A stretch of 64,000 bases of DNA, taken from positions 416,001 to 480,000 of the forward strand of contig CBDBKE010000004.1 in NCBI GenBank assembly GCA_965206645.1, in the 5' to 3' direction. The notes beneath the pieces are model-generated. The model had not been told where the DNA came from. It worked only from the letters and a program-made list of their open reading frames with translations, and made no database searches. Positions 14,200-34,626 of the stretch are shown piece by piece (position 1 is the first letter of the stretch; each line of letters starts with the position of its first letter). The translations under genes were made by a program, and so were the position numbers. Source of the DNA: Terriglobia bacterium (GTDB lineage Bacteria > Acidobacteriota > Terriglobia > JAJPHL01 > JAPKYU01).

Positions 14200-14461
14200 C
14201 TCTCATGATCAAATGTTAACTCGTGTCGTCTAACTTATGTTTGGCCGACCTGGATGAAACCGGCCCTGGCCGCCCTAAGACGAAACCCCTGCACGCGGGT
14301 CGCGGCGAGTTGTTCATGAAGCTCCGCTCCAAGAAACTTTTGGTGCTGGAAACCATACTTCAACTAGAACGCCCGGTCAACCTGGGCTCCCCGACCTGGA
14401 TGTATAGTCGGCTTACCGAAAACTGACCCACTACTCGGCTGGGATACACTTTGGTGCCGCG

Positions 14462-15694
14462 TTACTTTTCCCGGTAGGCGGCCAGGGCCGGGTGGTGCAG
14501 ACCGTGCCGGCGAATGAACCAGATGACAGACAAGAAGCAGATGCCTCCAGCCACCTGCGCCGCCAGCGCGGTGTGCATTGCGGTCAGCAAGCCGTAGCGG
14601 TCGGCGATTTTTCCAACCAGCCATCCTGCAGGGACGGTGGCGCAGAGGTTCACAAAGAAGTAATTTAACCCCAGCGCGGTGGCATGGGCGCGCGCCGGAA
14701 TCAGGTCATGGATGGTAGCGGCCGACGGCCCGTGGTACCAGGTCATGAAGAAGCTGCCCAGGGCGAAGGCGCCGAGGAAGTGCAATTTGCTCGGCGTGTT
14801 CAGCGCGTACAGGATGAGCGGCGCAGAGATTAGAAATCCTAGCGAAATCGCCAGAACACGACCCCCGGGAAAGACGCGCGCCAAGCGGTCGGCCAGGGCG
14901 GCGCCGGTCAGGACCCCGAAAATGCCGGCGACCACTACGATCGAGCCCAGGCTGATGCCGGCTTCGCGCAGTCCCATACCTTTATGTTCGTGAACGAAGG
15001 TTGCGCCCCAAATGACATAGGTGTGACCAGCAAAGGTGATGAACCAGCTGCTCACCATCACCATCAGGAAGGCCGGGACCCGCAGCAGATCACGGATGGG
15101 GACTTGCTTTTCACTGCGCTCGCGGCGGGGTTCCGGCAGGCGCAGGACCGTCAGCGCCAGAATCAACCCCGGGATCCCGACCAGGAAAAAAGCCGGGCGC
15201 CAGCCCACCCACTCCGCCAGGATGCCGCCCAGGGCAATTCCCATGGCGCCGCCGATGAACATGCCCAGGTCGAATCTCCCCTGCACCCGGGCGCGGACTT
15301 CGCCAGGAAATGTAGCCGTCACGATGGCGCTAGCGGCCGGCGTATAAGCAGCTTCGCCCACTCCCACCATGGCCCTTGCCACGAGCAAGGAGCGGAAGGA
15401 GGTGGCGAGGCCGCTTAGGAAAGTTGCCCCGCTCCAGAACAAAATGCCGTAGCTGATCACTTTCTTGCGCGAGGTGCGGTCGGCCAAAATGCCCAGCGGC
15501 AGGGTGCCCACGGCATGGACAACACTGAAGACTGCAACCAGCAAGCCGATCTGCGAATAGTTAAGCGCAAACTCCGCGCCAATCAGCGGGAACAGCGGGT
15601 AAATGATCTGCCGGTCCAGATAGTTGACAAAATTCAGCAGCGCCAGGATCAGCAGGACTTTCTTCTGAGGGCCGGTGAAACGTGGCGTTGCCAT
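14462..15694 (-). CDS. MFS transporter (spinster-like)
   Basis: NFVNYLDRQI, GILADRTSRK, RAMVGVGEA, GWRPAF; multiple hydrophobic helices. Confidence 0.9.
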   Translation of the reverse strand: MATPRFTGPQKKVLLILALLNFVNYLDRQIIYPLFPLIGAEFALNYSQIGLLVAVFSVVHAVGTLPLGILADRTSRKKVISYGILFWSGATFLSGLATSFRSLLVARAMVGVGEAAYTPAASAIVTATFPGEVRARVQGRFDLGMFIGGAMGIALGGILAEWVGWRPAFFLVGIPGLILALTVLRLPEPRRERSEKQVPIRDLLRVPAFLMVMVSSWFITFAGHTYVIWGATFVHEHKGMGLREAGISLGSIVVVAGIFGVLTGAALADRLARVFPGGRVLAISLGFLISAPLILYALNTPSKLHFLGAFALGSFFMTWYHGPSAATIHDLIPARAHATALGLNYFFVNLCATVPAGWLVGKIADRYGLLTAMHTALAAQVAGGICFLSVIWFIRRHGLHHPALAAYREK

Positions 15695-15930
15695 CGCTGC
15701 CTCCACACAGAGCGGTTGCCTCCACACAGAGCCCCCAGGGGGGAGGCCGTCGCTTTTCGAACGCCGAGTCTCGTCCACGCGGGCGCGGTTGTCAACCAAC
15801 TTCGGCGCGCTGTCCGACAATGTTAGTGGGTATGCGGTGGCGGGCTGCCTAGTCTAAAGTAATAGGTTGGTCGCTATATGTTATTAGTTACAACAAATAG
15901 ACTTATACGCAACACCCATTCTTTGATTAT

Positions 15931-17255
15931 TCATAGTCTTTCTTGGAAGACGAAATAAGAGGACGTCCACATGTGGGTGGGGATGGAGCCCGGGGCGGCT
16001 GCCGTCAGGATGATTTTGAACAGGTCGCCGTCGCCCAGCGTCTCGAGCAGGTTCTGAGAAGCCCGCAGAGGCTCGACCCGCGCCAGATAGCTCAGGATGT
16101 CGAAAATGACCTCGGTCGCCGGTGCCGGCCGGGTGCGAAAATCGTCGGCGACGAACTCCAGTTGCGAATCAATCTCGTGGAAGTGCCATGCCAGCGCGGC
16201 GCAAAAGTCTACGGCTCGTTCGAACCGCTCCAGCATTTTCCCGTCTGGGAGCTGACCGGGCGGCCCGACATCGGGTAAGCAGCGGTCAAAGACCAGTTGC
16301 ACCCGCCGCTCGTCCTCCCGTGCGAACTCCCGCACCTTCAAGGCGGAGGTGTGAGCCGACGCCTTCCAATCCACAACGCGTGCGCTGTCGCTAGGTTGGT
16401 AGTCGCGGATGTTGTACAGGTCGTGCCCCCGCCCGCGGTAGAAGCTCTCCAGTTCCCCGCTGAGCAGCGGCAGGATTTCATGAAACTCCTCGGTCGGCTC
16501 CACCGCCGGATAAACCAGCAGCTCGTGGTGTACGGGCACCTTCAGTACTTTTTCTAAATAACCGAATGGGAAGCGGGACCGGAGCGCGAACTGCTCCTGG
16601 CGATAGCTGCCCCGATGAGGAAAGCGCACCTCGATCGACTGCGCTACGGTAGAACCGCCCCGCAGGTAGGGGAAGTAGACGCCCGGCCCGAGCAGGTCAT
16701 CGATGGGCGTTTCCGGCGGATGCGTTGCAGCCAGCGCTTCGACGTCTCTAACCCTGTCACGGCCACTGAGAAGGACGGTAGCCGCCACTTGCCGTTGCGG
16801 AGTCGCACGCGGGCAAGCGCAGGCTGGCGGGCAAAGACGTGGTCAGGCAGCAGAATGTCCAGCTCCAGGCTCCGCAGCACCATGCCCGACACCACCCCGG
16901 AGACCAGCAAGGAAGCCAACATCGCCGCCAGGATTAGAAACAGCATATTGTTCCCGGTGTTCAGCGCGGCGATACTCGGCACGAAGATGCTGCCTATGAA
17001 CAACGAGCCGGCGCGCGTCAGGTGATAATCCACGCCGGCCCGGAGCCAGCCGATGTTTGTGCGCCGTGCCAGGTAGGGGACCGTCGTCACGGCAACGAAG
17101 CCGGCCAGAGCCAGGGCCAGCGAACCGGTCACGGCGACGCCCAGCAGGCTGCCCTCCTTCGCCAACACGCCGGAATACACCGCCATCAGGAAGGCAATGG
17201 AAAGGGCCAGCATCCCCCCTCCAAACCGCTTCCAGGCGGGAACGTCAACTGCCAT
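15931..17255 (-). pseudogene. DUF58-domain protein, frameshifted near 16700-16760
   Basis: AALNTGNNMLFL in one frame; SRFPFG, LVYP, IRDYQPSD, VDWKASA and VREF in another. Confidence 0.8.
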
Positions 17256-17304
17256 AGGGGATCAGAAAAACGCTGTGCTACAATGGAGAGCGGTCAGAAA
17301 CCAA

Positions 17305-17354
17305 TGGTGGGCGACAGGGGACTCGAACCTCTGACCTCCTGCGTGTGAAGCAGG
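17305..17354 (-). tRNA. 3' half of tRNA-Val(CAC); att site of an integrated element, not an intact tRNA
   Basis: CCTGC-TTCACAC-GCAGG anticodon arm, GGTTCGAGTCC T-arm and CCA end; D-arm and 5' acceptor strand are absent. Confidence 0.85.
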
Positions 17355-17462
17355 TCACGTCCTTCTTTCAGTTACATTGCTTCCATCCGTTTCCTCGTAT
17401 TATCAATAACTTGGGGAACCTGCTTTCACTCAGTCAGCAACCCCACTCGCTTCCGAACATAG

Positions 17463-17487
17463 GGTTTTGATACGGTTTTGATACGGT
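17463..17487. repeat. Tandem 11-bp repeat, possible integrase arm-type sites
   Basis: GGTTTTGATAC x2 about 110 bp inside the att site. Confidence 0.55.
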
Positions 17488-17630
17488 ACCATCTTCTTTA
17501 GAGGCGCAGAGCCGCCCTTTCCACGACTCCCCTTCATTTCGTCCTCTTGCACTTTTCTTCAAGCTGGTACGTCATGTCCTCAGAACCTGTTTTTAGCAAT
17601 CAATATGCTCTTGCGAACGGTGCCGTTCAG

Positions 17631-18237
17631 CTAGCAGGGCTTCCGTTTCAGACAGATCCCTTCCCCGATCACGATGAAGGCCGCCGCCCGCGCCGTCCCA
17701 TCGAGGATCGCCGAAAGCTCTTTCCAGTACGCCATCACGGCGGCGCACCACTTGGACAGATCGCGCTCCGATGCGTAGAGGTTATCTCCGGCGAGTGGTG
17801 CGACGAACCAGGACGCCAGCACCGCCGCGAGAGGTGATTTCGCATCGTCGCCTTTCTTCGCCCATCCGAGCCGCGAGAGGACTGGGTTTAGGAAGAGATC
17901 GGGCCGAAGTTTTGCCAGCTCGCTAGCAGATGGTCCCGCCCCGTGCTTGATTGCGTTCGCGGCCATCCTGAGTTTGTAGAGCTTCCCGGCGCAGGCGAAA
18001 CTCCGGCACTCGACGCCGTATGCGGCCAGACGCTTTTCGAGTTCCGCCGTCTGGAACGATCCATTTTCTTCCCTGGCCGCTTCGGCTGCCGCAGCCGCTT
18101 CTTCCGCGATGCCACCAAACGCCGGAGCCACCCTTCTCAAGTGCCCCGGCGTGAAAACCTTGGATCGCTGGAACGTAGACCCCCCGAAAATAATGGGCCC
18201 AGAACCGGGCATTCGGAACCATGTACCCATGGTACAT
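17631..18237 (-). pseudogene. Hypothetical HEPN-like protein, frameshifted
   Basis: LRMAANAIKHG motif; N-terminus MYHGY... lies in another frame. Confidence 0.4.
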
Positions 18238-18349
18238 CGCCCGGCCGGCATCCGGTCTCGACGCGCCGGGGCACCCCGGCCGCGTTCGGCGCGTGGGCCG
18301 CGCTCGATCCGGACATCGACTCCTACATGTCACAGGCGACGTTCTTCCG

Positions 18350-18710
18350 TCACAGGTCCTTCACACTATTGTTGAGCTGCTGGGCGCCATCGGCATATAC
18401 CAGCAAATCATCCTTCCCGAATACAGCAATGTTGTTGCGATTCCCCAAAAACGCGCCTCCGGCCTGACGCTCATGCAAGATGAGGAACCCTGCCGCCGTC
18501 CGGTCGGCGGTAATGCGGACGTTCAGACAGAATCGGCGTAACTTCTTCATCACCTCGATAGTCTGAGGCTCTGTCGTGCCACTTGTCCCGCTAAAACTCG
18601 ACACTACTGAGCCTTGTACAAATACCGTGACTCCGGGCGCATCCTCATTGAGCATCCGTGTTCATGGCGATCACTAAAACCAGCACCACTCCAGCAACTA
18701 ATGTTCGCAT
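18350..18710 (-). pseudogene. Small secreted hypothetical protein with a 1-nt frameshift
   Basis: Signal peptide MRTLVAGVVLVLVIAMNTDAQ after a GGAGG RBS; continues as EDAPGVTVFV in a shifted frame. Confidence 0.45.
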
Positions 18711-18804
18711 AGCGATAGTCCCTCCTTCAGAAGTTTCCCGGCTGCTCCAGCCTCGGTTATCCGACCGGAGGCGACAATGCCCCAGCTCCCGCCGCTTCGT
18801 GGGG

Positions 18805-19229
18805 TCAGTCCAACCGGGCTCCTTGGCGCCATTGCCAGGGCTTGATGAATTGTCCTTGCCAGATACCACGATTGTCTTTCCGGGCTTCATCTTCAGCGGC
18901 AACGTACCGTTTCGAGAAGCGCCGATAAGCAAGTGCTTGGCCTTGACGGACAAGCCATCCGTTCAAGTCCATGTCGTCCAGGTAGCAGACGGAAATCAAA
19001 CGGCCGTACTGGTCCCTCGTGTCACCCTTGCACGTGATGGACGCCTTGCCGATCTTTACACGCAGTGCCGAAGTCGCCTCCTTTCCGCAATCGTAGCGCT
19101 TCCCGTCACGCTTGCACGTCTGTCTTGATTCCGGCGCGTCAATCCCCTCCAGGCGCAACTTTTCACCGGCAATCTCCACGGTGTCGGCGTCGATGATGCG
19201 AGCCACGCCGGTCAGAGTTTCGGCACTGC
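18805..19229 (-). pseudogene. Thermonuclease (SNase-like) gene, 5' end removed at IS3
   Basis: IIDADT, RLEGIDAPE, DQYGR, LVRQGQA and RGIWQG motifs. Confidence 0.85.
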
Positions 19230-20509
19230 TGACCTGCCTGGCGATTTCCGGACCAGCTGAAGCCTGAGAGAATGGCGCCCTCGGAGAAACGAGGGAGCCA
19301 TGAAGAAGACCCGGTTTACCGAAGAGCAGATGGTGACGATCCTCCGCGAGGCCGATCAGCGGCCCGTTCCGGAGGTGGCCAAAAAGAACGGCGTCAGCGC
19401 CCAGACGCTCTACGCCTGGCGGAAACACTTCGGCACGTTGGAGCCCGCCGATGTGAAGCGGCTGCGGCAGCTCGAGCAGGAGAACGGCCGGCTGAAAAAG
19501 ATGGTGGCCGATCGAGATCTGGAGATCGACGTGCTCAAGGAGATCACCCGAAAAAAATGGTAGGCGCACGCGTGCGCCGGCCGCAGGTCGCGTATGCACG
19601 TGCACGCGGTCTGTCGGGTCGCCGCGCGTGCGCCTTGCTCTCCGTCGCACGGTCCACGCTGGGCTACCAGTCGCGGCTGGTCGACCGGGATGCCCCGGCG
19701 CTGGCCGCGATGCGTCGTCTGGCGGCGCAGTATCCGCGGTACGGCTATCGCCGGATTCGGATTTTCCTAAAACGCGAAGGGCACACGATGAGCACGGACC
19801 GGACCCATCGCCTCTGGCGCCAGGCGGGGTTGCAGGTGCCTCGGCGGCGGCCGCGGCGCCGGGTCGCCCTGAGCCGGCCCCGCCCGGTGCCCGCCACTGC
19901 GGTCAATCACGTCTGGGCGTACGACTTCGTGTTCGACACCTGCGCGAATGGGCAGACGCTCAAGTGCCTCACCGTCGTCGACGAATGGACCCGCGAGTCA
20001 CTCGCGATCGACGTGGCCGGCGGCATTCGGTCCGGGCGCGTTATCGAGGTGCTCACGCAGCTCGTGAGCGTCCACGGAGCCCCACGTTACCTCCGGTCCG
20101 ACAACGGCCCCGAGTTTGTCGCGGGTGCGATTCTCCGGTGGCTGCTCCAGGCGCAGATCGAAACCGCGCTCATCGAGCCGGGGAAGCCGTGGCAGAATGC
20201 GACCGACGAATCGTTCAACGGGAAGTTCCGCGACGAGTATCTGAGCCTGCAGTGGTTTCGGAACCGCGTGGACGCGAAGGTGGGGATCGAGCAATGGCGA
20301 CGGCACTACAACGACGTGCGACCGCACTCGAGCCTTGGCTATCTGACGCCAGCCGAGTTCAAAGCGCAGCTCCGTGCTGGCTCGGATGACGGTGGGCGCT
20401 CGCCGGCGATGCCGGCTCACGCTGACCAAGAAGAACACGAGAGCGACTTAACCATGCCGACTGGCGCTGTTCTCCAGTAATCGGTGGTCCGAAGAAAGCC
20501 GGCAGGTCA
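19230..20509 (+). mobile_element. IS3-family element (OrfA 19300..19563; OrfB to 20480 via -1 frameshift)
   Basis: TG...CA ends with IR TGACCTGCC..GGACCA; A7 slippery site near 19551; WAYDF, SDNGPEF, ESFNGKFRDE. Confidence 0.93.
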
Positions 20510-20796: not shown

Positions 20797-23700
20797 TCAG
20801 TCGCTGAGCAAATACTGAGTCACCAACGCACGTGTGATGGCTTCACCGCGTCCGGAAAGCTTTCGAACGTTTTCTTCCGACATTGCGGAGAAGTCGGTCG
20901 GGTAATGGATCACTTCCTCACGATCCACCCAGTTGGCGGATTTCAGAGGTACACGACGATCGATCTGTCCGAGACCTGCGTAGACAAACCCGTCAAGTCG
21001 CCCGAATTTCGCGTGATCGTGAAGCCGCTGTTTGGTAGCGTCCTGGACTTTGCGCATGACTGCGGACATGACCTGGGTCATTCGTTTTGTCCAACTGATG
21101 GGCACCCCCTTGCCGGTGAATTGCCCGGCGCCGGCGTCGCTCGCGATGATGATGTCGGGGTTGTAACTGATTGCGCTTACCTCGAGATCTCGGCCAGGCT
21201 CCATCACACTCACGCCTAGATTCTCGAACACGCCCCCGTCGGTGACTATCACGCGGCATGTATCGGTTTGCCCGTTTCTCTCCAAAGACTTCGTCCAGTC
21301 GAACGGCGGAAGGAATGGCGGGTAGGCGGCCGTGGCCGTCACCGCGTCGGCGACCCGGAGTTCGCTCGCCGGTGCCCAGCCGTATCTCCAAGTGCCGAAG
21401 CGTTCGTTGCTCATACGGAATGCAGTGCCGGTTCGGAGCTCACAAGCGTTGAAGACGATCGCCTTGCCTTGGCGCGTGGGCGCATCGCAGTTCTGAGTGC
21501 CGACTACGCCAGCGATCGCGTCGGCAAGGACGTGTGTCCGCGAATAGCGATGTCGGAGTGGCCACGACCAGCGCGAGACGAGGTTGCTGGCACTGCGAAT
21601 CCCGGGAAAGAATGTGGAGACCAGATTTGCGATCCAGGTCATCAAGTCGGTGGCCAACGTTGGCAGAGCGACGACAGCAAAGTTCCACAGGAGCGAACCG
21701 AGGCGTGCGGGATGCAGGAGTTTTTTCAGCGCAGGTCTTACCAGACCGCGATGAAGGAATTTGACAGCGCTGTCATCGATTTCGGAGAACGCAGCTTCGG
21801 TATAGCCGACTAGGGCAGTCATGACCGAGCCGCCCGACACGCCGGATATCACATCGACCTCATCGAGTAACTTGAGGTCTTCGAGCGCACGCAATGTGCC
21901 AAGATGAAATGCGACGGCACGCGATCCGCCGCCGGATAGCGACAGCCCAATCTTCTTGTCGAGTGCCGCCACCGGAGGCGGAGTCGTAACACCGCCTCGT
22001 GCCCCGATTGTGATCTCCATTCCGTTTCGGTGCGCGGCCAATTCTCTCTTTTCGAACGCGTAAGCCCCAATTTGCGGCTTCTGTTCGGCGGCATGCCCGA
22101 CGATCACCATCAGCTGGAGGGCACCGTCGTCGGGTCCAGCCGCAAAAATGGTGGCGATGCCTTCGTAGTCCGTGGCGCTAGGCGTTGCTGGGCTGACCGG
22201 ATGGGAATGCCAGGTTCCGACGTAACGCACGATCCGGTGGGTGCGTTCTTCGTAGTCCTTGCACAGAGCTCTTGTGCCGTGGGTTCCGCAGCGGAAGAGC
22301 TCGGCGGAAAACGTGCTGTCCTGCGGCGGCCCACTGACGTTGGTCACCCATACGATTCCGAGGGTCTCGTCGAACTGTCCGAACAGTAGACCACCCGTTT
22401 CCTGTTCCGCGGATCGTTCTCGGGCCCCCGCGCGTATCCAGCCGATCATATCCCGCCAGACATTCGCCGACATCCGGAAGTCGAGCCCGTCCGCGACCCA
22501 CCGAATGTCCGGGCGAAACCTAAAACGCTGTTCACGAATATCGGGCGACTGGCAGATGAGAAAACCGCTGGCGATGTCACCAGCGTCGTCAAGCGCCTCG
22601 GCCAATGCATTGAGCGCCCGCGCCGAAAGGACGGCCACGTCGGCGTGCGATGCGACGAAGGTGGGATCGGAACATCCGGGTTCTGGCTGCCGGAGACCTT
22701 CGATAGCGTCAGACGTCCAGAAGGCCTTCGCCCACTCGCCGAGCCAGTCACGGTTCACGGCCGCAAGGCCTAGGCGGCGGAACATGTCGAGGGGTCCAGC
22801 TCGGTATCCGGACGGAGCGACGACTGCGACAGCGTGCTGCGCGGTGGCGCTGATCATCACCGAAGCGATTGGAATCTGCCGCTCGTGTTCCTTGAGTACC
22901 GCCTCAAGCTTGCTTCTAACACGGAGTGACGCGGTCGCATCGACCACGACGTCGATATCCGCGTCCCAATCGGTCCTGGTCAGGGTCTGGAAGACAATGT
23001 CCTCGATTCTCGCAAAAACTTTGACGTTTGGTGCGATCGATTGCACCCGACTGGCGAGTGCCGTGGCCTTTGGCTCGTTAGTGTCCGCAGCGGAAAAGTT
23101 CTGGCGAACCAGCACGCCCGGGGTTACGTGGTTTCGGTCGTAAAGCGTGAGTTCTGCGATTCCCGCTCGAGCGAGGTGCTCTGCAATGAGTGAGCCTATT
23201 GCTCCGCAGCCCCAAAGCGCCACCCGTTTTCCGCGAAACCAGTCCATCGCCGTGCCTTCGTCTCGCCGGGTTACGATCTCGGGACGGTTCTCAATCACAG
23301 AGCACCACCTTACACGTGCCTCGTTCCTCCATCTGATCAAGGTTTCGAAAACAGAGTTGATCAACGCTTGGAATTCTTCCGGGGTGTCTTCTCTCCTGTA
23401 GTGGTTGCTGAATTGGCAGGCGATCGAGGCTGCGCGCAGCTTGGCGACATCGTGCCCTTCGATTTCCCAAAATGTGAGGTGTTGGTGTCGTTGCGTGACG
23501 TCGCCGGCGACGCCTCGTGCAGGCGCACCGATCGCGACGTACAACGGGGCGCCCTTGGTGACACGCTCCGAGGCCAGCATCAGGTGAGCAAGCAGCCGAT
23601 AGCCCAGGGCACCTTTGCTTTCCAGGTGGTGGAGCAGGTGATGGACCATTCGGGGGTATTCGAACGGAAGCTCGAAGTTCAGCAAGACCGTGGGCGCGAA

Positions 23701-24297
23701 CAACACATCGTTCTGCAAATGTTGTACGGGCACCCACGCATTGACCTCAAGAAGGCCGGGCTTCGGCTGGTCGAGCACTGCGGCTCCGAACCATGGCCAA
23801 GTATCGCGGCCCGGCGTGTCGGCGTTCACACAGATCGATGTCAAGGCCACCGTATAGGCAACGGGCGGGTGCAAAGGACCTTCGGGATGGTCGAGTTCGT
23901 TGCGGGCTCCACGTCGAAACCACTCGTCGAGCTGCGCCAGGAATCCGAACATGCCTTGAGACGGGATCCACTGGGTGTCGAGGGATTGATACAGGCATAG
24001 GTGGCTTCCCCACTGAACGTGACCAAAGCCGTGGAATCGGGTGTGGGCAGTGTCGGCAGATGGCGGACTGAATGGGAAATCTGCCGGCACCCATAGCGTG
24101 ATGCCTTCGCGGTCGTGGAGCTGCAGACCGTCATCGACATGCTCGTGACGGGAGCAATCGAGCGTGATGTCGACGCCTAAAGAAGCACCCTGGTCGACGC
24201 TCTCTTCAACACCGATGATCTGAACCGGGGATCGATCGGTACCTGCTATGCGTCGCAGCTGGTCTAGCGCGGTCCGTTGGCCTTCACTAAGCGCCAC
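20797..24297 (-). CDS. E2-E1(ThiF)-JAB-patatin fusion protein
   Basis: E2-like HVQWGSHLCLY; E1 WGCGAIGS, DVVVDAT, PEPGCSDP; JAB ETGG...WHSHPVSPATPSATD; patatin LSGGGSR, GVSGG, DGG; probable GTG start at 24297 overlapping the upstream stop. Confidence 0.88.
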   Translation of the reverse strand: MALSEGQRTALDQLRRIAGTDRSPVQIIGVEESVDQGASLGVDITLDCSRHEHVDDGLQLHDREGITLWVPADFPFSPPSADTAHTRFHGFGHVQWGSHLCLYQSLDTQWIPSQGMFGFLAQLDEWFRRGARNELDHPEGPLHPPVAYTVALTSICVNADTPGRDTWPWFGAAVLDQPKPGLLEVNAWVPVQHLQNDVLFAPTVLLNFELPFEYPRMVHHLLHHLESKGALGYRLLAHLMLASERVTKGAPLYVAIGAPARGVAGDVTQRHQHLTFWEIEGHDVAKLRAASIACQFSNHYRREDTPEEFQALINSVFETLIRWRNEARVRWCSVIENRPEIVTRRDEGTAMDWFRGKRVALWGCGAIGSLIAEHLARAGIAELTLYDRNHVTPGVLVRQNFSAADTNEPKATALASRVQSIAPNVKVFARIEDIVFQTLTRTDWDADIDVVVDATASLRVRSKLEAVLKEHERQIPIASVMISATAQHAVAVVAPSGYRAGPLDMFRRLGLAAVNRDWLGEWAKAFWTSDAIEGLRQPEPGCSDPTFVASHADVAVLSARALNALAEALDDAGDIASGFLICQSPDIREQRFRFRPDIRWVADGLDFRMSANVWRDMIGWIRAGARERSAEQETGGLLFGQFDETLGIVWVTNVSGPPQDSTFSAELFRCGTHGTRALCKDYEERTHRIVRYVGTWHSHPVSPATPSATDYEGIATIFAAGPDDGALQLMVIVGHAAEQKPQIGAYAFEKRELAAHRNGMEITIGARGGVTTPPPVAALDKKIGLSLSGGGSRAVAFHLGTLRALEDLKLLDEVDVISGVSGGSVMTALVGYTEAAFSEIDDSAVKFLHRGLVRPALKKLLHPARLGSLLWNFAVVALPTLATDLMTWIANLVSTFFPGIRSASNLVSRWSWPLRHRYSRTHVLADAIAGVVGTQNCDAPTRQGKAIVFNACELRTGTAFRMSNERFGTWRYGWAPASELRVADAVTATAAYPPFLPPFDWTKSLERNGQTDTCRVIVTDGGVFENLGVSVMEPGRDLEVSAISYNPDIIIASDAGAGQFTGKGVPISWTKRMTQVMSAVMRKVQDATKQRLHDHAKFGRLDGFVYAGLGQIDRRVPLKSANWVDREEVIHYPTDFSAMSEENVRKLSGRGEAITRALVTQYLLSD

Positions 24298-25444
24298 GAC
24301 CGAATCCAACTGCCGTTGCAGGCGCGACGGCGGCGCCACTGGCAGCCTTCAGCGCGTCGCTCATCGACTTGCTGGATTCGCTCTTGCCGACATAGGCGAA
24401 CCCTGTCTCGCTGACCTCGAAGATGATTGGCTCGGGGTTCCTCTTGTCCGGATGTTCCTGGGTGCACATGAACTCGTTAGGGACGATGCGCTGATACTGT
24501 CGCTTCGCCTTGGCGTGTGGTGGATTATCACCTGGTTCGTTGCTCGCCGGCACAGGGTCCGAGCTCGAGACAACATATCCGGGATTGAGGGCAGCGTTGC
24601 CAATGTCACGCACGATGTCAGATTTCAGCGTCTCCTCGTCGCCGTCCTCGTCTTTCCAGTACATCACTGACTTCGAGCAATGATGGGGTGCGAGCAGGAC
24701 GTTCCAGGCCCGCTTTGCGGCTTTACTGCGGTCGAAGATTCGTCGGATGATCGGATAGCTAAGGTCTCCCATGAGCAGCGCTCGGCCGACGCCGGATTCG
24801 TTATAGAGGGAGATCTGGAAGGCAAGGCTACAATCGTTCCGGTCGCCGAAGCTGTCGTCCTTGAACGGGGCGTGCACAAACGCCTCAAATGCATTGGGGA
24901 CGTCCTCACCGTCCAAAGTTGTGATGGTTTGGCCCGGAATGGACAGGAATTCTTTGGGAAAGCCTTTGAAATCGGGCTCCTTGAGCAGGTCGTCGTAGCC
25001 GATGATGCGAATTCGACGGCCTCGTCCGGGATCGCCGCCAGCGTCTATGCCCACCTTAACACGTCGCATCGCCTCGTCGTGGAAGGCTTGCGCGTCTTCG
25101 CAGAGGTCGTTGTTCTCGCGGAATTCGCGGAACGTGCGCGGCGACATCCAGAGCTCGGAGATGATCACGCGGTCGTTCAGCTCCTCAAAGCCCTGGCAGT
25201 GGTCCAGATCGGGATGCGTGAGCGCGAATACCGACAGATACGGCTTGCCGCGAAGTTTCGGCAGAACCTTGATCAACTCGTCGATTACCGGCCAAGCTGG
25301 GTCGTCGTCCTCTTCGGACTTGGCCATGTGCCGCATGTCGACCTGTAGGTACACCGTCTCGGACACGCGAACGGTCGTGCTGTCGCCAGTGCCGACCGGC
25401 CAGAAGATGAAGCCTCGGGCAGGAGAGTAGATCATATTGAGCAA
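24287..25444 (-). CDS. ComEC/Rec2-type metallo-beta-lactamase-fold protein with a ubiquitin-like C-terminal tail
   Basis: PVGTGDS, THPDLDH, MGD and PHHCS motifs; ends in low-complexity AAVAPATAVGFGRGA. Confidence 0.85.
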   Translation of the reverse strand: MLNMIYSPARGFIFWPVGTGDSTTVRVSETVYLQVDMRHMAKSEEDDDPAWPVIDELIKVLPKLRGKPYLSVFALTHPDLDHCQGFEELNDRVIISELWMSPRTFREFRENNDLCEDAQAFHDEAMRRVKVGIDAGGDPGRGRRIRIIGYDDLLKEPDFKGFPKEFLSIPGQTITTLDGEDVPNAFEAFVHAPFKDDSFGDRNDCSLAFQISLYNESGVGRALLMGDLSYPIIRRIFDRSKAAKRAWNVLLAPHHCSKSVMYWKDEDGDEETLKSDIVRDIGNAALNPGYVVSSSDPVPASNEPGDNPPHAKAKRQYQRIVPNEFMCTQEHPDKRNPEPIIFEVSETGFAYVGKSESSKSMSDALKAASGAAVAPATAVGFGRGA

Positions 25445-25662
25445 CCCCTTATGCTATACTAGCACATGTTGGGGTCGGTTGGAAGTGCGAGGGTTTCAGT
25501 ACATGCGAGGTGAGCTCTGGGGAAATAACCGGCTCACCGTCAAAAAGCTCAGCCTTGAGCGGCCGCCGTTCTGACCTGCATGTCTCGACGTGACGAGTGC
25601 TGCGACGGGGCGAATAGGCACTTGCGATGCAGTTTCCGGATCTTTGAGACAGCCTCTTCACC

Positions 25663-26070
25663 TTGCTTCTAAGGGCCTTTACCAACCATGGTGTGGGATA
25701 CTTGCTTATCGGAAGCATGGCCAAGTCCCATTACTCCCGTCGGCGCGAGCCGCTAGGCGAAATGGACCTGCTGATTAATCCCAAGCCCGAGAATGCAAGA
25801 AGGGTAGAGTCCGCTTTCCGGGAGCGAAATTATCATCAGCTGTTGCAGCTCGAACTGGAATAACTTGCCCTCCCAAATCAACAACACGCAATTTTCGACT
25901 GCGGCGTCCGCGTCGGCGTGTTCTTTCTCTTAAGCCGAATTTTAGTTTGTGTAAAGCCTTCTCCCGCTTAGAGACAGAGGTCGTTGACAGCATAAGTGTG
26001 CGGGTCGCATCTGAATGTGATTTGGAAACGCTCGACTCACTGAGAGAACAGAGCGCACGAGCACGTTGAA
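25663..26070 (+). pseudogene. Decayed nucleotidyltransferase-like gene
   Basis: GVGYLLIGSMA...EMDLLINPKPENA followed by an in-frame stop. Confidence 0.45.
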
Positions 26071-26129: not shown

Positions 26130-26867
26130 GATCGCTCGTGACCGTGTCGGAATAGTGGTATCGGAAGATTTTGGTGTTGCTGCATCAGGAAGGCTGGCCG
26201 GTGGGCAAGTCTCTGGTGAGGCGATTGTATCGGGAAGAAGGACTGACGCTGCGACGGATGGTGCCAATGAAACGCCGGGTGGCAGTGGAACGAACAGAGA
26301 GAATTAAACCCAGCGGACTGAACCAGGTGTGGAGTCTGGACTTTCTGGCGGAGCAGTTGGCCGATGGCAGGTGATTCCGAGCATTGACGGTGGTGGATGT
26401 ATTCGCGCGGGAAAGCCTAGCGGTCGAGCCGAGACAGAGTCTGATAGGGGGAGACGTGGTCCGAGTGCTGCAGCGGATTCAGAAAGACCGTGGGGCGCCG
26501 AAGGCGCTGTTCTGCGACAATGGATTGGAGTTCACGAGCCAGGTGATGGACTTCTGGGCGTACCGGAACGGAGTGAAGATCGACTTTTCACGCCCGGGAA
26601 AGCCGACCGACAACGGGCACATTGAGTCGTTCAACGGAACGTTCCGGGACGAGTGTCTGAACACACATTGGTTCCCGACGCTCGGGGATGCCAGGGAGAT
26701 CATCGCAGCATGGCGAAGGGAGTACAATGAGAGTCGTCCTCACAGGGCCCTGAGGGAGAAGAGGCCGTACGAATTTGCTCATCAAATCGCGGCTCGCCGC
26801 GATTTGATGGGTTCGAAAAAACCGCAATACTCACCTTGAAGTTGGTACGAAATCTCGGGACCCCTCA
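26130..26867 (+). mobile_element. IS3-family OrfB remnant
   Basis: VWSLDF, internal TGA at 26372, CDNGLEF, ESFNGTFRDECLN; terminal ...CCCCTCA. Confidence 0.85.
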
Positions 26868-26914
26868 GTCATATAAACCGGAATAAACTTTTTGGCTCTC
26901 CGGCGGTTGCGAGT

Positions 26915-27054
26915 GGCGTTGTTGCGTAATTCGCGCTCGCGGCGAACCGGGCCGAGAAGCTCATCCGCCTCAGTACACGCGCTCCGACCGTGGCATTCCA
27001 AGCTCCGCCATCCGGTTCAGCACAGCGCACTTGATCGCGGCTTCGACTTTTTGG
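26915..27054 (-). mobile_element. IS5-family (IS903-like) 3' remnant
   Basis: VEAAIKCAVLNRMAELGMPRS C-terminus followed by IR GGCGTTGTTGCGTAA. Confidence 0.65.
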
Positions 27055-27173
27055 GGTGTTGTCAAGTTGAGGCTGACGGGTGTTTCTGATGCCCAGCATG
27101 GCGCGTTCAAGACGGGCTGGAGCCCAGTATCCTGGGGGTCGATCGACTAGCTTTTCGTCAACTTGACAATGCC
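27055..27173. mobile_element. 119-bp IS6-derived miniature element
   Basis: GGTGTTGTCAAGTT ... AACTTGACAATGCC inverted ends, similar to the IS6 end at 63308. Confidence 0.7.
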
Positions 27174-27854
27174 GGCGACGGCGTTCTCGTTTAGAGGGAC
27201 GGCGTGCTGCATGAGGCTCTCGAAATATCGCATCGAGAACTGGACCTGGGTCGGCCAGAGGACACGCTGGCGGGCGTCCTGCGGGGTCCAAAGCTCCAAG
27301 CCCTCAATGACTGTTCCCTTGATGGTGACGGACCGGCCGTCTTTGCTGGCACCGAGGCGGAAATCCGCGGCGGCCAGCCGGTTGAGCTGTTCTTTGACGG
27401 TCTTGATGGTGCGCCCGCCCACGTCGAGGCCGAGGGTGCGCTTCACGAAAGCCGTGAGGCTGTCTTCGAGCTCAATGTTGGGCGATTGCGTGCGCAGGGC
27501 CTCGGCGTTCAGGTGGTAGAGGACAAGCCGGGGTTTCGGCCCGAAGGGCAGGCCCACGTCCACGAAATCCTCGGTTGTCGGATCGAGGAGACGACCGGCC
27601 TGAAGCTCCAGCCGGACCATGCCGTTCTTGCGCTGCCATAGCCGCACGGCTTCGCCGGGGTCGCGGTAAGGCATGCAGGTCTGGCACAGGACGGAATGCT
27701 GGTAGAGGATCGATTGGGCTTCCTCGTCCTGGAGAGGCATCGAAATGAGCCGTTCATGAATCCGGGAAAGCGGTTTGTGCTCGGGCTTGATGATGGCGGG
27801 AAAAAGGTCGCCGATGCGCTGCATCCCTTTTGCGGTTTTGTCGTCTATCGGCAC
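27174..27854 (-). pseudogene. repA: Plasmid replication initiator RepA (IncW-like RepA_C family), C-terminally truncated
   Basis: HSVLCQTCMPYRDP, GLPFGPKPRL, LWPTQVQFSMRYF; cut by the IS6-type end. Confidence 0.8.
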
Positions 27855-27890
27855 TTCCCTGCCCTCCTTTCGCTAATTTGCTAAGTTTCG

Positions 27891-28145
27891 CTAATTAGCC
27901 GCCGTTTTTCTTCCCTGCTGCTTTTCCCATGAGTCCACGGCCCGCTTGAGGAGCTGGATGTTTTTGAGCTGTGCGTCGAGTGCGAGGCGCTTGAATTTTT
28001 GCCTGAATTCTGGAGGCACCTTGAAATTGAGATCGACGAGCGTTTCCTTGGTGCTCTGCCCCCGCTGGAGTGAACCCGATACCGCAGTGGGGCTCCCTTT
28101 GGTTGCGAGCAAGGTACCGGCGTTGATCGCTGATGGTTTAGGCAT
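27891..28145 (-). CDS. Small partition protein (ParG-like ribbon-helix-helix)
   Basis: Overlaps parA; LNFKVPPEFRQKFK strand-helix pattern. Confidence 0.65.
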   Translation of the reverse strand: MPKPSAINAGTLLATKGSPTAVSGSLQRGQSTKETLVDLNFKVPPEFRQKFKRLALDAQLKNIQLLKRAVDSWEKQQGRKTAAN

Positions 28146-28824
28146 GTACTTTGACTCTCTTCTGGGTATTCGCTAATTCGCTATTGTTCGCTAATTCGCC
28201 TATGCGTTTCTTGGTGAACCGCCAGAGTTCGGCGATTTCCGCGGCGGCGGGGCTGCTTGGATTGATCTCTGGGGCGGTGCGGCCATCGGTCATCGAGGAG
28301 GCATAGTCCACCCGGTCATGCACGACGGATTGGAACACCTGCCCGTGCTGGGAAAGCGCCGCGATGGTCTGGACGGTGATCCGGGCGTTGGCCTTGGCCT
28401 GGGTCAGCACAAAGGCGAAAGGCGTCTCTGATTCCTTGACCAGGTCAAGCGTAGCCCCCAGGGACCAGAGGTCGTTGGGGCTCGGGCGTGTCGGGATCAG
28501 CACCAGGTCGGCGCGCTTGAGCACTTGCCGGTTCTGTTCGGTGAGCGCGGGCGGCGTGTCGATAAAGCAGGAGGCGAAGCCCGCCTCAGCCAAGGTCTGG
28601 AGCTTTTCAGGAAGTTCGCGGAGGTTGACGGGCGCAAGCTTGGGGCTTTCTGCTTCGCGGAGGTTCCACCAGGTGGCCAGTGTTTGTTGGGGATCGGTAT
28701 CAATGAGCACGGCGGGACCGTTCTTGGCGTGCTCTGCGGCCACGGCCAGGTGCGCCGCGAGGGTGGTCTTGCCGCTGCCTCCCTTCTGGGACGTGATCAC
28801 GACTATTTTCATTGGCATCGCCAT
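28138..28824 (-). CDS. parA: ParA-family partition ATPase
   Basis: SQKGGSGKTT, IDTDPQ, IDTPP, LVLIPTRPSPND. Confidence 0.92.
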   Translation of the reverse strand: MAMPMKIVVITSQKGGSGKTTLAAHLAVAAEHAKNGPAVLIDTDPQQTLATWWNLREAESPKLAPVNLRELPEKLQTLAEAGFASCFIDTPPALTEQNRQVLKRADLVLIPTRPSPNDLWSLGATLDLVKESETPFAFVLTQAKANARITVQTIAALSQHGQVFQSVVHDRVDYASSMTDGRTAPEINPSSPAAAEIAELWRFTKKRIGELANNSELANTQKRVKVHA

Positions 28825-31175: not shown

Positions 31176-32833
31176 CCGGAATTTCCATTTTGAGCTTCCC
31201 CTTCACCCGAAAAGCTATGCCTCGTACCCTGTCGTGTCAACCGCAAACAGCTCTGGCCTCTTTGAGGTGGTAGTGCGGCACATTTTGGCTGTTCTTCGGA
31301 GTCGCTGTGCGGGTTTCGCCTGCCCAGCCTGCCTCGCCGCTGACACTTATCCGGCCCGACCACTTCTGAGCACCTAAAATTACCCTCTCTCCCGGTTCGC
31401 TAGCCATCCGGCAGCGGCAGCGCCGCGATCATTCTCAGCATGCTGCCAAAACGCTGCCGTGTGAGGTGCCCCTCGGCCAATAGCAGCCAGTAATAGCGCG
31501 CATGTTTCACCAGCCGTCCGCCGGTCTTGACCAAGCGCTGCTGCAAACTGGTTAGCGACCAACTCTTGATCCTCTGCGGCAGTGCCAAACGTCGCCACAG
31601 GTTTCCCAGATTATAGGCGATCACACTGAGCCCAAGCCGCACCTGGTTAGACCGGAACCGGTGGCAGCTCAGCCGCGTCATCTTCACCGCCTGCTTGCCT
31701 TCCTTGATCCACTGTTCGGCAGTGCCCCGCTTGTTGTAAAAACGCACCACCGCCCGACTTGGCAGAGTCAAGTTCGTCACGATGAATCCTACTCGCGGGA
31801 ACAGCTCCCCTGGGTGATGCTCCACCCTGGCCACCACCCTGCGTGCTGTCTTCCAGCTGGCCGCTTGGTATAGAAAGCCCTTGAACTCCACCAACGGCTT
31901 CTTGCTGGGTCTCCCCACCGGCCGAGTCAGCAACTCCTCAATGTCCCGCTGTAGGCTGTCGTTAGCCGGGATGCGGATGGCGTACTTTACCTCCCGCTCC
32001 TCCAGAGCCTCGTAAATCTCCGGCTTGGCAAAGGCCGCGTCGGCACGAAACACCACTTCCTTGCCCAGCTGCTGCTGCCGCTCGATCTCCGGCAGGAGAA
32101 GTTCTTTCCAGTCCTCGGCGCTGTGCACGTTGCCCGGTCGCAGCTTGGCCGCCAGACAGTCACCCTCGCGATTGAACAGCAACAACGGGTGATAGCAGCT
32201 CGACTCGAAATGCCCGTTGTAGGCACTCTGCTCCTGCTGGCCGTAGACCGGAATCTCGGTCGAGTCCATGTCCAGCACCACCCGTTGCGGGGAATCCATA
32301 GCTTCCGCCCTGGCGATTAAATCCCGGTTGATCGCTGCCAAACCAGCCAGGTTCTCATCTTGCGTCAGTAGTTCTGTCTCGAACGATTGCAGCCGGGAAG
32401 TCAACGCGGCTCCTCGCTCCCAGATCTTTTCTGAACCGATCAGCCGGAACGTCGGATCTTGAGAGAGCCGTTCCGCGTCATTCATATCTTCGTAACCCGC
32501 CAAGCGGCTGTACACGGACTGGCGCAGGAGGTCAGCAAAGGGCAACCGTGTGTTCTTTCCCCGAGGATCGGCCAAGTGCTGTTTGATGAGTTCCCCGAAT
32601 CCCAAATGTTCGTCTAATTCGCGCACGAGGATCAGGCCGCCGTCGGAAGTAACCCGCGACCCCTGGAAATAGACCTTCAATGCAGCATTGAAAGAGAACT
32701 GAAAGGGCTGATTTTGCCTCTCACCCACTGGGTTTCTACCTCCGGAAGCTGTATTGACGCTGGAACCGGCATAAATATTGGCGTCGGAGGTCAGTATAAG
32801 GTTAGCTTTGGAGTTTCAAAACGGAAATCCGGG
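31176..32833 (-). mobile_element. IS1380-family element (transposase 31400..32728)
   Basis: IRs CCGGAATTTCC / CCCGGATTTCC; 5-bp target duplication CTTAG; close homolog of the element at 5989. Confidence 0.95.
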
Positions 32834-32847
32834 CTTAGACAGAAGGC

Positions 32848-33519
32848 TCAATGGCGGATACAGACTATTCCACCGCATCCCGAAGAGTTCATGGCCTTCG
32901 ACAAGCGACGGGTTTCAAAATCCAGCAGCAACGCGTCATCCTGCGTGATCTGGCGGGCATGCATGGTGTCCACACGCACCGGGTACATCCTTCGGAAAGA
33001 TTCGCGTACATTCTCCTTTCGATCGAAGATCGGCGAAAAGACATGCCAGTTGTCACGCTTGCACATCACCTGAACATAGTCGGTGAAGTCTGCATAGGCG
33101 ATCAGGGCATCTTCTCCTCGCCCACCCTGTTGCGCTTTTTGCTTCTTCTCTTTCCACTGGAGGTACATTCCGTTTGGCAACTGGTGTTTCGGCCAGTCGG
33201 AACCGTAGCATGCTGTCATCCGTTCATCGATGCAACGCCGCAACTGCGTTTCCAGCCCAGCAATCCGGACATACGCCATGGGGGCACGGCCTTCCTCTTT
33301 GTGGTCCAGCGGCTTGTCCCCACGCAGATCGGCGATATCTAGGCTTTTTTCGAAGGCCGGGGCAGAAAAATCCGGTCGCGCGCCCTTTAATCCACGGCTC
33401 ACATAGAAATCTGCGCGTTCGCCATAATCCGTGAGTATCTTTCTCGGCCAGGCGATCCGGTTCTGATCTTGCACCGCCGCCTCCGGCGTCGGGTTCACTA
33501 GCAGCGTTTTTTCAGTCAT
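32848..33519 (-). CDS. Swt1-family HEPN domain protein
   Basis: LETQLRRCI...YGSDW, YADFTDY, DNW..F and RVDTMH (R-x4-H); GGAGG RBS upstream of ATG 33519. Confidence 0.7.
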   Translation of the reverse strand: MTEKTLLVNPTPEAAVQDQNRIAWPRKILTDYGERADFYVSRGLKGARPDFSAPAFEKSLDIADLRGDKPLDHKEEGRAPMAYVRIAGLETQLRRCIDERMTACYGSDWPKHQLPNGMYLQWKEKKQKAQQGGRGEDALIAYADFTDYVQVMCKRDNWHVFSPIFDRKENVRESFRRMYPVRVDTMHARQITQDDALLLDFETRRLSKAMNSSGCGGIVCIRH

Positions 33520-33654
33520 CTTTTCCTCCAAAGTTTTTCCTGAGTGCTGTGGTGTTGACGTGGTTCTAAGGTGCGGGAACCGTTCACCCGACAGCGGGAA
33601 TTCATCCCTGAGTGAAGCAGTATTGACATGGTTTTGATGTCCCCCGTCCCCGCC

Positions 33655-34620: not shown

Positions 34621-34626
34621 AATATC

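What the first reader, a model, noticed from the sequence alone, without database searches (positions are those of the whole stretch)
24287..24360. MBL C-terminus looks like a masked conjugation tail (…VGFG|RGA)
Seen: an Ala-rich flexible tail ending TAVGFG followed by RGA-stop, the last codons overlapping the next gene's start. Established: E1 enzymes adenylate a free C-terminal Gly/Ala, Cap2-linked cyclases end in similar tails, and JAB peptidases can trim extensions. Inference: the MBL is the conjugated substrate and needs JAB cleavage after Gly to be armed.
Basis: partly seen in the sequence, partly recalled or inferred. Interest (0 to 1): 0.75.

Follow-up and report, generated by a model that had tools for sequence, protein, structure and literature searches.

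The report
Capped conjugation tail of 6A-MBL enzyme
The flexible end of this nuclease-like enzyme carries a conserved Gly-Phe-Gly handle hidden under three throw-away residues, as expected if the neighbouring ubiquitin-type ligase/protease trims it and attaches the enzyme to a target; the phage-defence system it belongs to (6A-MBL) is already named.

Summary
The minus-strand gene 24287-25435 encodes a 382-aa metallo-beta-lactamase-fold protein. Its last 33 residues are a disordered, Ala-rich tail ending VGFG(379)-RGA-stop. The last 11 nt overlap the GTG start (24297) of the next gene.

Both genes pass NCBIfam's curated cut-offs for the known anti-phage 6A-MBL system (operon type 6a of Iyer et al. 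2006). The second gene here is a four-domain E2-E1-JAB-patatin fusion.

- GFG followed by 3-4 variable residues occurs in 115 of 117 close homologues.
- Among 72 full-length family representatives, 64 carry an aromatic-Gly/Ala motif in the last 14 residues, against 6 of 72 in an internal control.
- GFG is kept through synonymous codon changes.
- The cap varies even between >90% identical proteins and switched state at least 16 times on the family tree.

A co-fold supports binding of the enzyme to the E2-E1 part (0.80 against 0.00 for controls), but on the E2 domain, not in the E1 pocket.

Conjugation at Gly379 and trimming by the JAB domain remain inferences; nothing here shows cleavage or an adduct. 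This scan found the same system before on other DNA. Verdict: a variant of a known system, of moderate interest.

The parts
24287..25435 (-). Gene 1: the 6A-MBL system's MBL-fold enzyme, 382 aa plus stop (ComEC-like metallo-hydrolase fold).
   Evidence: NCBIfam NF058524.1 '6A-MBL_enzyme' scores 293.6 bits (cut-off 220) over residues 11-345. The AF2 model has pLDDT 90.5. The Foldseek top hit is the ComEC MBL domain 9ic4, E 4.9e-13. Invariant residues are D33, H74, D78, H79, D224, H251 and H252.
24299..24388 (-). Disordered Ala/Ser/Gly-rich linker (residues 350-379) ending in the conserved V-G-F-G379, the predicted conjugation handle.
   Evidence: pLDDT is below 50 for residues 353-357 and 365-382. 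GFG is kept in 115 of 117 close homologues. It is kept in 19 of 19 loci despite synonymous codon variation.
24290..24298 (-). Three-residue cap R380-G381-A382 after the conserved Gly. It is not conserved, and its codons also encode the start of gene 2.
   Evidence: Caps differ even in homologues of 93-95% identity (RGAQ) and across the clade (RGTE, HGTH, SGTD...). Family-wide the cap is 0 to about 8 residues long.
24287..24297 (-). 11-nt overlap (GTGGCGCTTAG) between the end of gene 1 and the GTG start of gene 2. This arrangement suggests translational coupling.
   Evidence: ATG sits at the homologous position in L004, L014 and L019.
20797..24297 (-). Gene 2: a 1166-aa E2-E1-JAB-patatin fusion (the 6A-MBL 'cap2_3' protein with a C-terminal phospholipase).
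   Evidence: NCBIfam NF058523.1 scores 360.2 bits (cut-off 320). Pfam finds Prok-E2_A, ThiF, Prok-JAB and Patatin. PADLOC E1-E2 model PDLC00857 scores 4.8e-77.
23815..24204 (-). E2-like domain, with invariant H85, H93 and C101 (1166-aa numbering).
   Evidence: Pfam PF14457, 4.7e-19. This domain is the predicted docking site of the MBL protein.
22834..23235 (-). E1 (ThiF) adenylation domain, with GxGxxG 363-368, R398-Q399-N400, and D449/D453. Just downstream, C542 lies in the disordered crossover loop.
   Evidence: Pfam PF00899, 4.8e-21. The loop 530-546 has low pLDDT.
22096..22422 (-). JAB/JAMM metallopeptidase domain with the full motif: E633, then H697-x-H699-x7-S707-x2-D710.
   Evidence: Pfam PF14464, 9.5e-10. 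The sequence reads GTWHSHPVSPATPSATD. These residues are invariant in 51 sequences.
21208..21945 (-). Patatin-like phospholipase domain, with G789-G-G-x-R793, G-x-S821-x-G, and D1020-G-G.
   Evidence: Pfam PF01734, 3.7e-19. It is only weakly like the CBASS phospholipase models.

Best explanation
This is the C-terminal conjugation tail of the MBL-fold enzyme of a 6A-MBL anti-phage system, in a variant whose ligase also carries a patatin phospholipase.

Shown:
- A folded ComEC-like MBL core (residues 1-349) is followed by a 30-residue disordered linker ending in the conserved V-G-F-G379.
- Three non-conserved residues (R-G-A) follow. Their codons double as the start of gene 2.
- Gene 2 encodes E2, E1, JAB and patatin domains, all with intact catalytic motifs.
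- Family-wide the motif is aromatic-Gly/Ala, exposed in about half of the representatives and capped in the rest.

Inferred by analogy with Cap2/Cap3 of type II CBASS and with JAB processing of Bil/Bub pre-proteins:
- The two proteins are made together through translational coupling.
- The MBL enzyme docks on the E2 domain.
- The JAB peptidase cuts after Gly379.
- The E1 domain adenylates Gly379 and takes it onto C542.
- Gly379 then passes to the E2 cysteine C101 and on to an unknown target.
- This changes the activity or location of the nuclease-like enzyme during infection, and the JAB domain can also reverse the link.
- The fused patatin domain is a membrane-damaging effector. In sister loci it is a separate third gene.
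For: Family membership: both NCBIfam equivalogs score above their cut-offs.

Tail:
- GFG plus 3-4 residues occurs in 115 of 117 close homologues.
- 64 of 72 representatives have the motif in the last 14 residues, against 6 of 72 in a control; 32 of 72 end on it.
- G379 is at least 90% conserved.
- All four VGFG codons vary synonymously while GFG is kept in 19 of 19 loci.
- The tail is disordered in a model of pLDDT 90.5.
- The cap state changed at least 16 times among 73 sequences, so caps are tolerated. This fits a trimming activity that is always present.

Ligase and protease: all catalytic motifs are invariant in 51 sequences.

Binding: the co-fold of E2-E1 (1-600) with mature MBL (1-379) scored 0.80, with the best of 3 controls at 0.00. 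That mark was reached by 58 of 80 solved complexes and 2 of 110 mismatched pairs. The runs agree in at least 88% of contacts, and the partner's pLDDT is at least 85. The interface covers E2 residues 13-126, flanking C101, with MBL residues 272-286, 312-321 and tail 353-375.

Precedents in print:
- Cap3 cuts exactly after the last residue of cGAS in a cGAS-GFP fusion, and Cap2 adenylates the cGAS C-terminus (preprint 10.1101/2022.03.31.486616, passages).
- The Bil JAB peptidase exposes the Ubl's C-terminal glycine (10.1101/2023.09.26.559546, passages).
- 'MBL pathways' are said to conjugate their enzyme (PMC11601596, passages).

Only the two genes are conserved across 19 loci.
Against: - No cleavage, adenylate, thioester or isopeptide was observed. 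Everything after 'conserved capped motif' is inference.
- The co-fold gave no confident contact for residues 376-379 or for the E1 adenylation domain (residues 355-488). It was run with one ligase copy, whereas Cap2 works as a dimer. Solved Cap2 complexes exist (7to3, 7tsq), so part of the score could be likeness. The calibration counts hold only roughly with my own alignments.
- Cap presence goes with overlap of gene 2's start codon: all capped loci examined overlap, and 3 of 3 uncapped ones (L022-L024) do not. The cap may therefore be a by-product of gene packing with no regulatory meaning.
- Some family members have a non-aromatic residue before the Gly (PRAG, PRLG), and 8 of 72 representatives lack the motif as I defined it.
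- The paper that named the system (van den Berg et al. 2024, Cell Host Microbe) is not held, so I could not see what it reports about the tail.
Confidence: 0.6

Rival explanations
1. The tail is a non-covalent docking or regulatory peptide. The conserved aromatic-Gly motif binds the E2, E1 or JAB domain (or the MBL active site) as a tether or pseudo-substrate. It is never trimmed or conjugated, so the cap is irrelevant.
For: The co-fold places tail residues 353-375 and the MBL body on the E2 domain with high confidence. It gives no confident placement of the terminal VGFG in any active site.
Against: A docking motif has no reason to sit at or within a few residues of the C-terminus in 64 of 72 representatives, or to be the very last residues in 32 of 72. 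The E1, E2 and JAB catalytic residues are invariant, which implies a covalent substrate. No Ubl gene accompanies the pair in 19 loci.
Confidence: 0.15
2. The cap is removed by something other than the system's own JAB domain, such as a phage or host protease. Unmasking of Gly379 would then be the infection sensor.
For: Proteolytic activation of CBASS cyclases by phage prohead proteases has been reported (PMC12991175, abstract). The cap lies in an exposed, disordered tail.
Against: That report concerns an internal activation loop, not the C-terminus. Cap sequences are not conserved, so they offer no recognition site. About 44% of representatives have no cap at all. A JAB domain with the right kind of specificity is always present.
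Confidence: 0.1
3. The E1 domain uses the true C-terminus (Ala382 here) without trimming, and GFG is only part of the recognition stretch.
For: This protein happens to end in Gly-Ala. Some family members end in aromatic-Ala (RYA, RFA).
Against: The terminal residue is Q, E, K, H, D or T in close homologues, including Q in proteins 93-95% identical. A conserved adenylation pocket is unlikely to accept all of these.
Confidence: 0.05
4. The GFG-plus-cap pattern is conserved at the nucleotide level for ribosome binding and translational coupling of gene 2. It is not a protein feature.
For: The motif lies immediately upstream of gene 2's start codon in every locus.
Against: All four codons vary at synonymous sites (GTT/GTC/GTG; GGA/GGG/GGC; TTC/TTT; GGT/GGC/GGA) while the amino acids are kept. 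The motif is also kept where gene 2 starts further downstream (L022-L024).
Confidence: 0.03

Closest known systems
6A-MBL anti-phage system. This is operon type 6a of Iyer, Burroughs & Aravind 2006 (PMC1779556, section 14 and Table 1 read). It was named and tested by van den Berg et al. 2024, Cell Host Microbe, which is not held and is known here only through citing papers (PMC13276650, 10.1101/2025.09.30.679545 and PMC11601596, passages).
   Same: A two-gene operon: a specialised MBL-fold protein followed by an E2-E1-JAB protein. Both genes pass NCBIfam's curated cut-offs.
   Different: The ligase carries a C-terminal patatin phospholipase, so it has four domains. In this clade the tail is always capped (115 of 117). 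The NCBIfam MBL profile ends at residue 345 and does not cover the tail.
Type II CBASS: Cap2 (E2-E1), Cap3 (JAB), a CD-NTase with a disordered tail, and often the patatin effector CapV.
   Same: An Atg7-like fused E2-E1. A JAB peptidase that cuts exactly after the substrate's last residue. A substrate that is an enzyme with a disordered tail and a conserved small C-terminal residue, not a beta-grasp Ubl. A patatin partner.
   Different: There is no nucleotide cyclase; the substrate has an MBL fold. The JAB and patatin domains are fused to the ligase. The patatin domain matches the CBASS phospholipase models only weakly. The C-terminus is capped.
Bil and Bub bacterial ubiquitination-like pathways.
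   Same: A JAB peptidase processes a precursor to expose the reactive C-terminus and can also reverse conjugates.
   Different: Those systems conjugate a beta-grasp Ubl using separate E1 and E2 proteins. Here the conjugated moiety is a 380-residue enzyme.
Eukaryotic ATG8/LC3 with ATG4, ATG7 and ATG3. The C-terminal sequences are recalled from my own knowledge, not taken from a call.
   Same: An aromatic-Gly C-terminus (Phe-Gly or Tyr-Gly) hidden under a short, variable extension that a dedicated protease removes. The E1 is of the Atg7 type; 6a and Cap2 E1s are said to be its closest bacterial relatives (supplemental discussion passage).
   Different: ATG8 is a small beta-grasp protein attached to a lipid. 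ATG4 is a cysteine protease, not a JAB metalloprotease. No target is known here.

Membership tests
6A-MBL anti-phage system | MBL-fold protein of the 6A-MBL family | tested here: met
   NF058524.1 scores 293.6 bits against a cut-off of 220. The MBL fold is confirmed by AF2 and Foldseek.
6A-MBL anti-phage system | Adjacent E2-E1-JAB ('cap2_3') protein | tested here: met
   NF058523.1 scores 360.2 bits against a cut-off of 320 over residues 72-746. Pfam finds E2_A, ThiF and JAB.
6A-MBL anti-phage system | Simple operon with the MBL gene directly upstream of the ligase gene | tested here: met
   The genes overlap by 11 nt. They are the only two genes conserved across 19 loci.
6A-MBL anti-phage system | Intact catalytic residues of the E2, E1 and JAB domains | tested here: met
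   C101, GxGxxG, C542, and E633/H697/H699/S707/D710 are invariant in 51 sequences.
6A-MBL anti-phage system | Protection against phage | not testable with these tools
   Reported for Pseudomonas aeruginosa systems according to citing papers only.
6A-MBL anti-phage system | Covalent conjugation of the MBL protein through its C-terminus | not testable with these tools
   Asserted in PMC11601596. Here there is only comparative evidence and a co-fold that supports binding.
Type II CBASS | CD-NTase (cyclic-oligonucleotide synthase) in the operon | tested here: not met
   No nucleotidyltransferase was found among the neighbours scanned with Pfam. No third conserved gene exists in 19 loci.
Type II CBASS | Cap2-like E2-E1 and Cap3-like JAB | tested here: met
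   PADLOC E1-E2 scores 4.8e-77 and JAB 8.6e-21. The closest solved relatives are Cap2 chains 7tsq and 7to3.
Type II CBASS | Cyclic-nucleotide-activated patatin effector (CapV-like) | tested here: inconclusive
   A patatin domain is present. It matches CBASS phospholipase models only over about 50 residues, at E 4.4e-5 and 3.1e-6.
Ubiquitin-like modifiers (Ubl/ATG8 type) | C-terminal Gly (often aromatic-Gly or Gly-Gly) at the end of a flexible tail, sometimes capped | tested here: met
Ubiquitin-like modifiers (Ubl/ATG8 type) | Beta-grasp fold | tested here: not met
   The fold is an alpha-beta/beta-alpha MBL sandwich. It works like a Ubl tail but is not a Ubl.

The most novel reading that the evidence does not exclude
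The aromatic-Gly handle under a removable cap, an Atg7-type E1 and a membrane-acting patatin domain on the same polypeptide could together form a bacterial counterpart of ATG8 lipidation. After JAB trimming, the nuclease-like enzyme itself would be attached to a membrane lipid, or to a membrane-proximal phage structure, next to the phospholipase. Trimming would then be an obligatory licensing step and not the antagonistic role that Cap3 has in CBASS.
Probability: 0.06. Interest if true: 0.85.

Novelty: new variant of a known kind. Interest (0 to 1): 0.4.

Why it matters
In ubiquitin-type pathways, enzymes that carry their own conjugation tail are known in detail only for CBASS cyclases. This family gives a second, unrelated enzyme fold with the same kind of tail.

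The comparative pattern yields a precise, testable prediction: cleavage after Gly379 by the JAB domain, then E1/E2-dependent conjugation.

The capped and uncapped forms within one family are a natural experiment on whether the peptidase acts as an activator (maturation) as well as an antagonist. The patatin fusion, which is a separate third gene in sister loci, suggests how the system kills or arrests the cell.

All of this refines a known system. It does not reveal a new one.

Tried and rejected
- Pfam finds no family for the MBL protein at E up to 0.01. A sequence search of the PDB gives nothing relevant. The fold was established only through AF2 and Foldseek.
- PADLOC gives only weak hits for the MBL protein (PDC-M48B, LmuA). 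I did not use them.
- I considered that GFG conservation might reflect a ribosome-binding site for gene 2, and rejected this on synonymous codon variation.
- I considered a third conserved gene, such as a regulator or a Ubl. None was found in 19 loci. The small ORFs upstream (25449-25724 and 25775-25993) have no Pfam hit.
- I considered that the true C-terminus is the reactive residue, and rejected this on its variability.
- Literature searches for a description of the tail found no paper describing the MBL tail motif or its cap: 'E2-E1-JAB' (0 papers), '6A-MBL' (2 papers), Cap2/Cap3/CBASS plus metallo-beta-lactamase, 'Type II Pycsar' plus MBL, and a five-term search. The naming paper (pmid 39094584) and Ledvina et al. 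2023 (PMC10292035) are not held, so the motif or cap may be in print there.
- The AF2 model of the whole 1166-aa ligase (pLDDT 78.8) added only domain boundaries and a disordered crossover loop. I had no coordinates with which to measure distances between active sites.
- The single co-fold job went to E2-E1 with the mature MBL protein.
Full report
**What is in the sequence**

Two minus-strand genes sit back to back. Gene 1 (24287-25435) encodes a 382-aa protein ending ...SMSDALKAASGAAVAPATAVGFGRGA*. Database copies start at the ATG at 25435.

Gene 2 is listed as an ORF from 24339. Alignment of the junction in 13 homologous loci shows that conservation starts at M-A-L-S-E-G-Q. This is a GTG at 24297 here and an ATG at the same place in L004, L014 and L019. 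The genes therefore overlap by 11 nt (GTGGCGCTTAG). The codons of R380-G381-A382 are the same nucleotides as M-A-L-S of gene 2.

**What the genes are**

Pfam finds nothing for gene 1. NCBIfam assigns it to NF058524.1, 'anti-phage 6A-MBL system MBL-fold protein' (293.6 bits, cut-off 220). It assigns gene 2 to NF058523.1, '6A-MBL system cap2_3 protein' (360.2 bits, cut-off 320).

Gene 2 has Prok-E2_A, ThiF, Prok-JAB and Patatin domains and matches PADLOC's E1-E2 model at 4.8e-77.

[quoted passage not shown] It is now called 6A-MBL and counted among phage defences (PMC13276650 and 10.1101/2025.09.30.679545, passages). [quoted passage not shown] The paper it cites for MBL (van den Berg et al. 2024) is not held.

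**The enzyme**

With a 75-sequence alignment, AlphaFold2 gives a confident model (pLDDT 90.5, pTM 0.89) with residues 353-357 and 365-382 below pLDDT 50. Foldseek against the PDB finds MBL-fold phosphodiesterases and nucleases. The top hit is the ComEC beta-lactamase-like domain 9ic4 (E 4.9e-13), followed by the Pce esterase and RNase J.

Family-invariant residues include H74-x-D76-x-D78-H79, D224 and H251/H252, so the metal site looks intact. The substrate is unknown.

**The tail**

Close homologues. A search returned 2938 proteins at E <= 0.001 and listed the best 120, at 72-100% identity. I examined the 117 of length 375-410. Three shorter ones were dropped: two are N-terminally short but also end in GFG plus a cap, and one is C-terminally truncated. 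Of the 117:
- 115 contain GFG followed by a cap, 110 with 4 residues and 5 with 3;
- the two exceptions (P0075, P0084) read like the +2 frame of the same DNA, so they are probably frameshift errors.

Cap sequences differ (RGA, RGAQ, RGTE, HGTH, SGTD, NCAK...), even between proteins 93-95% identical.

Wider family. An exhaustive search of 50%-identity representatives found 617 relatives and listed the best 150. I took the 72 of 340-460 aa as full length and dropped 78 as fragments or fusions. Results:
- 64 of 72 carry [FYHW][GA] within the last 14 residues, against 6 of 72 for an internal 14-mer;
- 32 of 72 end exactly on it (TYG, RHG, GFG, RYA...);
- two of the eight 'misses' end in PRLG and PRAG.

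Named examples fit the pattern. Rhizobium plasmid pRLa11 ends KVGFG-AE. E. coli plasmid pKMi029_1 ends APRAG-VINQ.

Selection. In 19 loci the four VGFG codons all vary synonymously while GFG is kept in 19 of 19. Selection therefore acts on the protein, not on a ribosome-binding site.

Lability of the cap. On a tree built from the core columns only, the capped/exposed state changes at least 16 times among 73 sequences. In 200 label shuffles the mean was 24.4 changes and the minimum 18. Caps come and go easily.

**The cap and the gene overlap**

In the patatin clade, the 3-4 cap codons are read in a second frame as M-A-L-S-E/D of gene 2. This explains their semi-regular look (R/H-G-A/T-E/Q).

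In more distant loci the overlap is shorter, yet caps persist: 4 nt in L018, L027 and pRLa11; 8 nt in L019 and L025. In the three uncapped loci examined (L022-L024), gene 2 starts after the stop codon.

Caps may thus arise as a by-product of start-stop overlap and be tolerated because something removes them. This is a correlation in a small sample, not a demonstration.

**The partner**

In a 51-sequence alignment the following are invariant:
- E2: H85, H93, C101;
- E1: G363-x-G365-x-x-G368, R398-Q399-N400, D449, D453 and C542 (PEPGCSDP);
- JAB: E633, H697, H699, S707, D710;
- patatin: G789-G-G-x-R793, S821, D1020.

The loop holding C542 is disordered in the AF2 model of the whole protein (pLDDT 78.8), as expected for an E1 crossover loop.

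The four-domain architecture is common in metagenomes. All 120 listed homologues (56-100% identity) carry the ThiF, JAB and Patatin domains. In 12 of 20 genome loci the downstream reading frame is 1142-1185 codons.

In relatives of the same phylum:
- L054 has the patatin as a separate third gene overlapping the ligase gene by 4 nt;
- L053 has a separate patatin further downstream;
- L056 has the fusion, broken by insertion sequences;
- L051 and L052 lack a patatin.

The phospholipase is thus a recurrent, modular third part of these systems.

**Co-fold**

I co-folded E2-E1 (residues 1-600 of the 1166-aa protein, with alignment A2) and the mature MBL protein (residues 1-379, with alignment A1). 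The score was 0.80 (runs 0.80, 0.79, 0.80), with the best of 3 controls at 0.00. That mark was reached by 58 of 80 solved complexes and 2 of 110 mismatched pairs. These counts hold only roughly because my own alignments were used. The runs agree in at least 88% of contacts, and the partner's pLDDT is at least 85.

The confident interface is on the E2 domain (residues 13-126, including 84-87, 98, 103 and 108-111 around C101). On the MBL side it involves helices 272-286 and 312-321 and tail residues 353-375.

There is no confident contact for residues 376-379 or for the E1 adenylation domain. The model supports binding and an engaged tail. It does not show adenylation of Gly379. Solved Cap2 complexes exist, so some likeness effect is possible, although the MBL partner is unrelated to a cyclase.

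**Mechanism and verdict**

The best reading (confidence 0.6) has five steps:
1. The two proteins are synthesised together through translational coupling.
2. The MBL enzyme docks on the E2 domain.
3. The JAB domain cuts after Gly379.
4. The E1 and E2 domains conjugate Gly379 to an unknown target.
5. The JAB domain can also reverse the link.

The patatin domain would act as a membrane effector. Every step after 'conserved, capped, disordered tail next to an intact E2-E1-JAB' is inferred from type II CBASS and Bil/Bub.

The aromatic-Gly-plus-cap pattern also recalls ATG8 with ATG4. That comparison is recalled, not from a call. It fits the reported kinship of 6a/Cap2 E1s with Atg7.

The system occurs once in this genome. 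It was found above the cut-off in 8 of 401 genomes sampled from the phylum, counting this one. It lies among insertion sequences and RepA/ParA genes.

Earlier notes of this scan reached the same identification on other DNA. I re-tested their main points here.

Noticed in passing
window 26384-28824 and 12788-20480: The operon lies in a mobile patch. On one side are a truncated rve integrase (26384-26839), RepA_C (27147-27854) and ParA (28138-28824). On the other are an IS with rve/HTH_21 (19272-20480), a Mutator-family transposase (12788-13966) and a staphylococcal-nuclease homologue (18805-19650). This looks like plasmid-derived DNA inside a contig of about 2.2 Mb.
   Followed up: partly
window 32848-34653 (-): A 601-aa ORF combines a phage-integrase (tyrosine recombinase) domain with a C-terminal Swt1-like HEPN domain. 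It lies next to a DDE transposase (31400-32728).
   Followed up: no
L054 (G150:C1:914000-924000) 1723-7316: A sister 6A-MBL locus with four genes: an MBL protein ending PRAG-NE, an E2-E1-JAB protein of 811 aa, a separate patatin of 393 aa overlapping it by 4 nt, and a second 270-aa MBL-like ORF with no Pfam hit.
   Followed up: partly
L056 (G200:C1) 2592-8725: A copy of the fused system whose ligase gene is interrupted by two copies of an insertion sequence. A JAB-patatin remnant of 676 aa is left.
   Followed up: no
L058 (E. coli plasmid NZ_CP147110.1) 4007-8410: The enterobacterial plasmid version has a WYL-domain protein divergently upstream and umuD just downstream. Its MBL tail ends APRAG-VINQ. 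Homologues occur in 279 plasmid records, 125 of them from Klebsiella.
   Followed up: partly
proteins P0075 and P0084: Two database homologues end in ...GGRIRSWH and ...CGRIRS, which is the +2 frame of the usual VGFGRG... DNA. These are probably frameshift or sequencing errors just before the motif.
   Followed up: no
proteins P0164 (714 aa), P0146 (593 aa), P0239 (631 aa), P0266 (532 aa): Some relatives of the MBL enzyme are much longer, with extra N- or C-terminal regions of unknown content. These may be fusions.
   Followed up: no
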